From positions 11,293 through 75,292 of the forward strand of contig JAGGWK010000060.1 of NCBI GenBank assembly GCA_021157525.1: a stretch of 64,000 bases of DNA. Reading direction: 5' to 3'. Below, one piece after another: positions 62,206 to 64,000 of the stretch. The notes beneath the pieces were generated by a model that saw only the letters and a program-made list of their open reading frames with translations, was not told the origin of the DNA and did not search any database. Within the stretch, counting starts at the first letter, position 1, and each line of letters starts with the position of its first letter. A program made the position numbers and the translations under genes. Source of the stretch: Candidatus Cloacimonadota bacterium. GTDB lineage: Bacteria; Cloacimonadota; Cloacimonadia; Cloacimonadales; TCS61.

Positions 62206-62370
62206 TATTTATTCCTTTGGCGCAGAGGGTGTGGAAGGGTAAAAATCTGTCAAGTGTGCCGATGTGAAAAAATAAACAAATGAAATGTTGGCACGAAAAT
62301 GTTCTAACGTATTTTTTACTTTGTAGATTAAATAATGAAAAGAAAAACAAATCCTTATAAAGGAGGAGAG

Positions 62371-64000
62371 ATGAAGAAAATTGGGATTTTGGTTTTAATG
62401 GTTCTTAGTATAGTGTGGGTGTGGGGAGCAGATTACGGTTCTATGTATATTACTGCCGGAGAAGCATCAAAGTCAACTTCAACAGCCTTTTCGCTAATTA
62501 CAGGATATACAAGTATGGCAACATCTGGCTGCACTTACACAACCGATGGAATTACAACTGGTGCAACTGTTGGTGAGAAGCGATATTTGATCCGCTATTC
62601 TTTAAGTTTCTATGGAGACGCTGCTCTTTGGAGTTTTGGAGTTAAAATTGGTGACGGCACAACTAGAGGTATTATTGAACGTAGGATTTCAGAAGGAGGT
62701 ACTGATGTTGGAAACGCGGCTGGTAGTTTTATTGCTACTATACCTCAAAATACCGAAATAGTACTTCAAATAAAAGCAGACTCTGGAACAGCGAATTACA
62801 CTCCTGTTCATAGCCAATTAGTTGTAGTTGAGTTAAGCGAAGCTGGAACTCCAAAATATGGCGAAATGCAGATAGTTAATAATGATAGTCCGCAAATATT
62901 AGATAACTCTGGTAATTCTTACTACAATCCTCTTTTCACTACCGTAGAACATTTTGGAAATACGCATTCAAATTTGTCGGGATGGGTATTTGCTTCAAAT
63001 GCATTAACTGCCAGTTCAGGTTCTGCTGGTACGTATTTAGCAATTTTATCTACTAGTTTTAATAGTACTTTAAGTACTAGTTTTGAATTTGGCGTTTCAT
63101 TAAACGGATATGATCCCTACGGAGAATCTTCCGATACACAAATTGTTCTTAAAAGAACTGTTGGTGATACAGATATCGGAAATGGAGGTGCTTGCGGTAT
63201 TATCTCGATTTCTGATGATGATGTAGTGAGTATTCAAGCAAAAGCGGCTGGTACTGGGGCACAAACAATTACAACGCAATATGCATCTCTTACTTTGTTG
63301 AAGATTGCAGATAATACTTTGCCACCCTACGCAGGGATGAGAGTCAACAATAACGTAACCAAGATTGACTTACCTCATTCAATCTGGGTTAAAGAAGTTG
63401 ATTTTGTTTCAGATATACTGCATCCAACATATTGGGATTTTTCAGATACAGAAGTTCAATTAACACCAAAGAATTCATCAGCTGGTGATTATCTGGTAAA
63501 CTATTATTTGTCCATCTCTGTACCTTTAGGTTCAGATACAAAATATACTTTTAACACCTTGTGTGCTATTTTCAATAATGGTTCACAGTTATCCGATTTA
63601 ACAACGGAAAGAACTCTTGAAAGGAAAAAGAATGATGCAAACAATCAGCCTGATGTTGCAGCAATTGCTGGGACAGCGATTATCACTATTGAACACCCTG
63701 ATGACGCATTATATCTTCAATTGCAAAATATTGACCAAGATAACACCATGAATCCAATTATAAGATATGCAAATGTGAATCTATTCCGAATTAGCACTAA
63801 AGGCGACGGAGCCCTTCCCGTCACTCTTTCCAACTTCTCGGCAGCCTATATCGGTAGTGTACCGATTATCGCCTGGACTACCCAGAGCGAAAGCGGCAAT
63901 GCCGGCTGGAATGTCTATCGGGGAGATTCCCCAGAAGCTCTGCAAAATGGTGACGCCTTCTTGGTTAACGGCAGCCTTATCAATGGCGCCGGCACCACCA
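62371..64000 (+). CDS. secreted three-module repeat protein with a C-terminal surface-sorting-type region (3' end lies outside the window)
   Basis: This ORF is not in the ORF track because it has no stop in the window. It has a GGAGGAGAG RBS and a signal peptide (MKKIGILVLMVLSIVWVWGA). The frame is open for 543 codons, with three paralogous ~135-155-aa modules followed by ALPVTLSNFSA...AWTTQSESGNAGWNVYRG. Confidence 0.75.
   Translation, partial: MKKIGILVLMVLSIVWVWGADYGSMYITAGEASKSTSTAFSLITGYTSMATSGCTYTTDGITTGATVGEKRYLIRYSLSFYGDAALWSFGVKIGDGTTRGIIERRISEGGTDVGNAAGSFIATIPQNTEIVLQIKADSGTANYTPVHSQLVVVELSEAGTPKYGEMQIVNNDSPQILDNSGNSYYNPLFTTVEHFGNTHSNLSGWVFASNALTASSGSAGTYLAILSTSFNSTLSTSFEFGVSLNGYDPYGESSDTQIVLKRTVGDTDIGNGGACGIISISDDDVVSIQAKAAGTGAQTITTQYASLTLLKIADNTLPPYAGMRVNNNVTKIDLPHSIWVKEVDFVSDILHPTYWDFSDTEVQLTPKNSSAGDYLVNYYLSISVPLGSDTKYTFNTLCAIFNNGSQLSDLTTERTLERKKNDANNQPDVAAIAGTAIITIEHPDDALYLQLQNIDQDNTMNPIIRYANVNLFRISTKGDGALPVTLSNFSAAYIGSVPIIAWTTQSESGNAGWNVYRGDSPEALQNGDAFLVNGSLINGAGTT

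What the first reader, a model, noticed from the sequence alone, without database searches (positions are those of the whole stretch)
62371..64000. AT-rich, three-module secreted protein joined to a GC-normal C-terminal sorting-type region
This ORF is absent from the supplied ORF track because it has no stop in the window. It encodes a signal peptide and then three paralogous modules (aa 22-155, 163-312, 320-474). The modules share these features:
- a start of Y(G/A)xM.(I/V);
- a mid-module strand (RYLIRYSLSF, TYLAILSTSF, DYLVNYYLSI);
- a turn (GTDVGNAAGSFIATI, DTDIGNGGACGIISI, QPDVAAIAGTAIITI);
- a closing strand.
The DNA encoding the modules (about 62400-63790) is visibly more AT-rich than the rest of the window. 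Composition returns to the local norm exactly where the C-terminal ALPVTLSNFSA...AWTTQSESGNAGWNVYRG region begins. That pattern suggests a swapped or fast-evolving surface-exposed cassette on a conserved anchoring or sorting domain. I do not recognise the module family.
Basis: seen in the sequence. Interest (0 to 1): 0.5.

Follow-up and report, generated by a model that had tools for sequence, protein, structure and literature searches.

The report
Swappable triple C1q/TNF-like surface head
A Cloacimonadota bacterium exports a surface protein whose head is three fused C1q/TNF-like domains, and near-identical strains carry two unrelated-looking versions of this AT-rich head at the same locus, so it is exchanged as a cassette on a constant secretion anchor.

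Summary

- **Composition.** The ORF from 62371 is open to the contig end. Its first about 1.4 kb has GC 0.37 and GC3 0.24, against GC3 0.56±0.035 for host genes. Composition jumps to the host norm at 63802.
- **Modules.** The three modules are true paralogues (hhalign E 1e-27 to 1e-35).
- **Rest of the protein.** Seen on a 99.6%-identical contig, it is a hinge, a β-sandwich spacer and a T9SS type A sorting domain.
- **Swap.** Eight assemblies of the same species share flanks that are at least 98.8% identical, between folP and aroC. They carry one of two heads that are 29-31% identical in protein and undetectable by blastn. The breakpoints are sharp: one inside the signal peptide (62404-62411) and one at the hinge (63802).
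- **Origin.** Both heads have the codon composition of low-GC Cloacimonadota. Their nearest relatives (68-72% identical) live in such genomes, which implies import.

The adhesin or lectin function is inferred, not shown.

The parts
62314..62323 (+). TTTTACTTTG, a possible promoter element 48 nt upstream of the start codon. It lies in the AT-rich intergenic region that both alleles share.
   Evidence: It occurs only twice in 64 kb, against 0.14 expected. The other copy lies at a similar distance upstream of the PEPCK gene. It resembles the Bacteroidetes TAnnTTTG element; that resemblance is from my own knowledge and was not tested.
62361..62366 (+). Shine-Dalgarno sequence AGGAGG.
   Evidence: Read directly from the sequence. 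It supports ATG 62371 over the upstream ATG 62335 used by gene callers. Homologues P0002-P0009 start with MKK at this position.
62371..62430 (+). Sec-type signal peptide MKKIGILVLMVLSIVWVWGA. The left recombination breakpoint lies inside it, at 62404-62411.
   Evidence: The sequence has the basic-hydrophobic-small pattern of a signal peptide. The full-length model shows a helix at residues 3-12 with low pLDDT. Identity to allele-B contigs stops after codon 11. No signal-peptide predictor was available.
62434..62835 (+). Module 1 (aa 22-155), a C1q/TNF-like jelly roll.
62857..63306 (+). Module 2 (aa 163-312), a C1q/TNF-like jelly roll.
   Evidence: This is the module most often matched in single-module relatives (profile positions 140-283). 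56 of 117 such relatives match Pfam BclA_C.
62878..62922 (+). Variable loop at the start of module 2 (aa 170-184, NNDSPQILDNSGNSY). It contains an 8-residue insertion specific to this allele.
   Evidence: Five of the nine non-synonymous differences between the window and L001 fall here. It has the lowest pLDDT of the head, about 67. The insertion is visible in alignment A1.
63328..63798 (+). Module 3 (aa 320-476), a C1q/TNF-like jelly roll and the largest of the three.
62404..63801 (+). The exchanged, AT-rich cassette. It covers the distal signal peptide and all three modules. The window carries allele A.
   Evidence: There is no blastn similarity to allele B (L002 6354-7774) across this stretch, while both flanks are 96-99% identical. 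GC is 0.376 and GC3 0.24. Allele B has GC 0.390 and GC3 0.27.
63802..64000 (+). Start of the constant, GC-normal C-terminal region. It comprises the hinge (GDGALPV) and the first strands of the β-sandwich spacer. The gene continues beyond the window with a Pro-rich linker and the T9SS type A sorting domain.
   Evidence: Identity to allele-B contigs is 96-99% from 63802 onward. The full-length model shows a hinge at 479-481 with pLDDT below 50, a sandwich at 485-586 and the CTD at 601-688. TIGR04183 scores 39.8 bits against a cut-off of 23 at P0001 aa 618-699.

Best explanation
**What it is.** The gene encodes a cargo protein of the type IX secretion system in a Cloacimonadota bacterium. Its parts, in order:
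- a Sec signal peptide;
- a globular head of three diverged C1q/TNF-like (BclA_C-like) jelly-roll modules joined by 7-residue linkers;
- a flexible hinge;
- one β-sandwich spacer;
- a proline-rich linker;
- a T9SS type A C-terminal sorting domain.

**Head geometry.** C1q/TNF domains normally work as trimers of three chains, with both chain ends at the base. Here the three protomers appear to be fused into one chain, forming a natural single-chain pseudo-heterotrimer.
- Shown: the fold, and the canonical packing of two neighbouring modules.
- Inferred: closure of the third module into a full trimer.

**Location and function (inferred).** After Sec export and T9SS translocation, the head is expected to be displayed on, or released from, the outer membrane. 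There it would act as a ligand- or glycan-binding head. This is inferred from the roles of BclA, TNF-like lectins, Bdellovibrio fibre tips and phage receptor-binding tips.

**The cassette.** Within one species, whose flanks are at least 98.8% identical, the DNA for the whole head exists in at least two alternative forms at the same chromosomal site. The recombination joints are sharp: one in the signal peptide and one at the hinge (shown).

**Origin (inferred).** Both forms carry the codon composition of low-GC Cloacimonadota, where their closest relatives are found. The promoter, the first 11 codons and the spacer-plus-CTD have host composition. The most likely history:
- at least two imports of foreign heads onto the resident anchor, by recombination at conserved joints;
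- spread within the population by homologous recombination in the identical flanks;
- maintenance of both forms by diversifying or frequency-dependent selection on an exposed surface, for example escape from phages or partner specificity. This last step is speculative.
For: **Cassette swap**
- L001, L011 and the window carry allele A. L002, L008, L012, L013 and L014 carry allele B. All lie between folP (Pterin_bind) and aroC.
- blastn identity is 99.2% up to window 62411, absent for about 1.42 kb, and 96-99% from 63802.
- The heads are 29-31% identical and the C-terminal region 99% identical.
- Flank differences are uniform at 1-3 per 250 bp, with no gradual decay toward the joints.
- Per roughly 1.4-1.5 kb of flank, differences are 1-9 within an allele type and 8-17 between types.

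**Foreign composition**
- GC3 is 0.24 and 0.27 in the two heads, 0.58-0.59 in the C-terminal region, and 0.559±0.035 in host genes.
- The nearest relative of head A is P0002 (68.5% identical, genome GC 0.356). The nearest relative of head B is P0133 (70% identical, genome GC 0.356). Their modules have GC3 0.19-0.20.
- In other genomes the module GC roughly tracks genome GC, within about 0.05.
- Head and tail histories are uncoupled elsewhere in the family. P0132 and P0133 are 33% identical in the modules but 90% in the C-terminal region. P0002 and P0005 are 74% against 40%.

**Fold**
- The AF2 head model has pLDDT 93.8 and pTM 0.94.
- Foldseek agrees.
- 56 of 117 single-module sequence relatives match Pfam BclA_C and 8 match TNF.
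- The termini of C1q modules lie at the trimer base, so 3-residue linkers suffice to fuse them (PMC4774423).

**T9SS**
- TIGR04183 and PF18962 score above their cut-offs.
- The domain layout comes from the full-length model.
- T9SS cargo is released or anchored through A-LPS, and CTDs are exchangeable between cargoes (PMC11285876).
Against: - No donor is sampled. The nearest relatives of either head are only 68-72% identical, so import is inferred from composition and incongruence rather than observed.
- Ribosomal protein genes rplU and rpmA in the window also have lowered GC3 (0.41 and 0.33). Low GC3 is therefore not exclusive to foreign DNA in this genome.
- No direct Pfam, NCBIfam, PHROG or PDB sequence hit exists for the modules of the window protein.
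- Nothing here tests binding, surface location, expression, or selection.
- T9SS machinery genes were not looked for in this genome.
Confidence: 0.72

Rival explanations
1. Ancient balanced polymorphism. Heads A and B would be old alleles, kept in this lineage since before its GC content rose. The flanks would have been homogenised by recombination, and the non-recombining heads would have stayed AT-rich.
For: Both alleles are common and occur in several samples. Flank differences are slightly higher between allele types than within them. The first roughly 110 bp of the right flank carry a few extra differences. A second lineage also has A-like and B-like heads on a 90%-identical tail (P0132 and P0133).
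Against: The joints are sharp and flank divergence is 1.2% or less, which argues against long-standing linked diversity. A GC3 of 0.24-0.27 would have to resist the mutational or selective pressure that raised every other gene to about 0.56, including the last third of the same gene. Each head has a 68-72% relative in a low-GC genome, at a different locus.
Confidence: 0.15
2. The low GC reflects a compositional constraint or translational selection on this gene, such as amino-acid content, high expression or secretion kinetics, rather than foreign origin. The swap would be real but unrelated to the composition.
For: The modules have GC 0.36-0.42 in genomes ranging from 0.32 to 0.50. The highly expressed rplU and rpmA genes of the window have GC3 0.41 and 0.33.
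Against: The shift is in GC3 (0.24 against 0.58) within a single mRNA. It coincides to within a few bases with the recombination joint. Expression level cannot differ between two parts of one ORF. In the roughly 0.40-GC genome L005 the modules have GC3 0.35, close to that gene's own C-terminal part (0.40).
Confidence: 0.08
3. Programmed antigenic variation. The expressed head would be replaced from silent cassettes elsewhere in the same genome, by gene conversion, an invertase shufflon or a diversity-generating retroelement.
For: One expression site carries alternative heads. Several assemblies break at or near the joints: the window contig, L008 and L009.
Against: No second copy of either head or of the C-terminal region was found in the 64-kb window. 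Gene calls and Pfam hits show none in the 6 kb downstream in L001. No inverted or direct repeats bracket the cassette. The heads are 29% identical with many indels, which is not the adenine-specific substitution pattern of a DGR. Each contig shows a single allele with intact flanks.
Confidence: 0.04
4. Assembly artefact. The AT-rich head from a low-GC organism would have been joined in silico to a GC-normal contig.
For: The source is a metagenome-assembled genome, and the contig ends 200 bp after the joint.
Against: The same joints are spanned, with both flanks, in independent assemblies made by different pipelines. For allele A these are ENA, JGI and NCBI records. For allele B they are ENA, Logan and JGI records, including a 130-kb contig. 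The reading frame is continuous and the domain boundaries are respected.
Confidence: 0.01

Closest known systems
BclA C-terminal domain and ExsFA/BxpB of the Bacillus exosporium (Pfam BclA_C, C1q/TNF superfamily)
   Different: BclA is a homotrimer of three chains whose head sits C-terminal to a collagen-like stalk. Here three diverged modules lie in one chain at the N-terminus. There is no collagen repeat. The stalk and anchor (β-sandwich plus T9SS CTD) are C-terminal. The window protein does not itself reach any Pfam threshold.
Engineered single-chain trimers of TNF/C1q-family heads (scAPRIL-BAFF-BAFF 4zch, scC1q 5hzf, sc-adiponectin 4dou, sc-Cbln1 5kca)
   Different: Those proteins are laboratory constructs, whereas this one is natural. 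Only two modules superpose at once, so the order or handedness of the modules around the axis, or the placement of the third module, may differ. Sequence identity is 10-12%.
TNF-like bacterial lectins (BC2L-C N-terminal domain of Burkholderia cenocepacia; PLTL of Photorhabdus laumondii)
   Different: They are homotrimers or hexamers of separate chains. No sugar-binding residues were identified or tested here. The secretion route is different.
Mosaic adhesive trimer (MAT) fibres of Bdellovibrio and phage receptor-binding tips
   Different: Those are long trimeric fibres with the variable tip at the C-terminus. In Bdellovibrio the diversity is spread over many paralogues in one genome. Here there is a single compact monomeric head at the N-terminus, with allelic replacement at one locus among strains.
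Replacement-type flexible genomic islands and mosaic surface-antigen loci (O-antigen or capsule loci, mosaic surface-protein genes)
   Same: Conspecific strains have identical flanks around highly divergent alternative content that encodes an exposed structure. The composition is atypical, and more than one allele is maintained in the population. The comparison with this concept rests on my own knowledge.
   Different: The unit here is a 1.4-kb intragenic segment bounded by protein-domain joints, not a multi-gene island.
Tandem C1q/TNF-like proteins predicted in phages and giant viruses (for example A0A6J5LW36, a 'C1q domain-containing protein' of an uncultured Caudovirales phage; Hyperionvirus; Terrestrivirus)
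   Same: Foldseek aligns the whole three-module head over 470-500 columns, with E 1e-10 to 1e-18. Natural multi-module chains of this fold therefore exist.
   Different: They are viral, uncharacterised and lack a T9SS anchor. Identity is 9-15%. TM-scores normalised by query length are about 0.3, so the arrangement is not shown to be the same.

Membership tests
C1q/TNF superfamily (BclA_C-like branch) | Compact jelly-roll β-sandwich of about 130-150 residues | tested here: met
C1q/TNF superfamily (BclA_C-like branch) | Sequence-profile match to a curated family model (Pfam BclA_C, TNF or C1q) | tested here: inconclusive
   The window protein has no hit. Allele B scores E 0.015 and 15.6 bits against BclA_C, below the 38-bit cut-off. 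The link is transitive only: 56 of 117 single-module relatives match BclA_C at E ≤ 0.01 (best 6.7e-11), 8 match TNF and 1 matches C1q. An A2 profile search of PDB sequences found nothing.
C1q/TNF superfamily (BclA_C-like branch) | Three protomers packed around a three-fold axis | tested here: inconclusive
BclA/C1q-type collagen-stalked proteins | Collagen-like Gly-X-Y repeats N-terminal to the head | tested here: not met
   No Collagen hit appears in P0001, P0010 or the window ORF. The head follows the signal peptide directly. Among 117 single-module relatives, one (P0165) has collagen repeats.
T9SS type A cargo | C-terminal sorting domain (TIGR04183 / PF18962) above the curated cut-off | tested here: met
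   On the full-length protein from the 99.6%-identical contig, TIGR04183 scores 39.8 bits (cut-off 23) at aa 618-699. PF18962 scores 27.8 bits (cut-off 27) and PF13860 scores 29.9 bits. The domain lies beyond base 64000 of the window.
T9SS type A cargo | N-terminal Sec signal peptide | tested here: met
   The sequence MKKIGILVLMVLSIVWVWGA has the expected n-, h- and c-regions by inspection. It forms a helix at residues 3-12 with low pLDDT in the model. It is conserved in position across homologues. No dedicated predictor was run.
T9SS type A cargo | T9SS machinery (PorV, SprA, PorU and others) encoded in the same genome | not tested
   Only 64 kb plus flanks were available, and the ten large ORFs scanned are housekeeping genes. 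The literature reports that T9SS may be present in Cloacimonadota (PMC11285876).
Replacement-type allelic cassette | Same chromosomal site and near-identical flanks in conspecific strains | tested here: met
   The folP...aroC synteny holds in all eight loci. Flanks are at least 98.8% identical.
Replacement-type allelic cassette | Alternative contents too divergent to have arisen by point mutation in situ, each seen repeatedly | tested here: met
   The heads are 29-31% identical in protein with no blastn match. Allele A has 5 cluster members and allele B has 6 full-length members.
Programmed variation systems (silent-cassette conversion, shufflon, DGR) | Donor copies, bracketing repeats, or a reverse transcriptase with a template repeat near the variable region | tested here: not met
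   tblastn finds no other copy in the window. There are no bracketing repeats. Neighbouring genes are folP, cdaA, coaE and aroC. The rest of the genome was not available.

The most novel reading that the evidence does not exclude
Cloacimonadota and related FCB bacteria would possess a natural single-chain heterotrimeric C1q/TNF-like recognition head, something so far made only by protein engineers. It would be mounted on a T9SS anchor and traded as a whole between species and strains by recombination at the signal peptide and the hinge. It would then be a cellular counterpart of phage receptor-binding-tip swapping, setting strain-specific recognition of partner cells, glycans or phages in uncultured anaerobes.
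Probability: 0.35. Interest if true: 0.7.

Novelty: new variant of a known kind. Interest (0 to 1): 0.58.

Why it matters
- **Protein evolution.** It gives a natural example of three C1q/TNF protomers fused into one chain. Such a design frees the three faces to diverge, as in heterotrimeric C1q. That is of interest both for protein evolution and for the engineering of single-chain TNF-family ligands.
- **Intragenic domain replacement.** The case is clean and base-resolved. A surface head was replaced between near-identical strains of an uncultured phylum, and a compositional scar points to import from low-GC relatives.
- **Practical handles.** Such loci mark where selection acts on the cell surface, whether from phages, predators or syntrophic partners. 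They also explain recurrent assembly breaks in metagenome-assembled genomes.
- **Annotation.** The family (about 30 clusters at 50% identity) has no curated model. It is currently annotated only as 'T9SS type A sorting domain-containing protein' or 'hypothetical'.

Tried and rejected
**Searches that found nothing**
- Direct family searches of the window protein against Pfam, NCBIfam and PHROGs gave nothing for the modules.
- A profile search of PDB sequences gave only noise.
- A phmmer search with the C-terminal region gave only weak FlgD and Ig hits.

**Searches that were limited or unavailable**
- The AFDB Foldseek library was unavailable.
- The homologue search with the C-terminal 212 aa returned only short T9SS proteins at 54% identity or less, and did not even list P0001 or P0010. 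It therefore cannot exclude further heads on this tail.
- The search with full-length P0010 found no third allele.
- The genome-contig scan returned only two loci because it relied on two peptide patterns.
- The metagenome scan with a flank pattern gave one contig. It starts inside allele B.

**Ideas rejected**
- Silent cassettes or bracketing repeats: none found.
- I considered that the C-terminal D/G polymorphism in the MAG's second contig showed both alleles co-occurring in one sample. It does not, because the variant is not linked to allele type.
- I considered codon adaptation as the cause of the low GC3, because rplU and rpmA are also lower. I rejected it because the shift is intragenic and sits on the recombination joint.

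**Literature**
- Searches found no description of natural bacterial single-chain C1q/TNF-like trimers.
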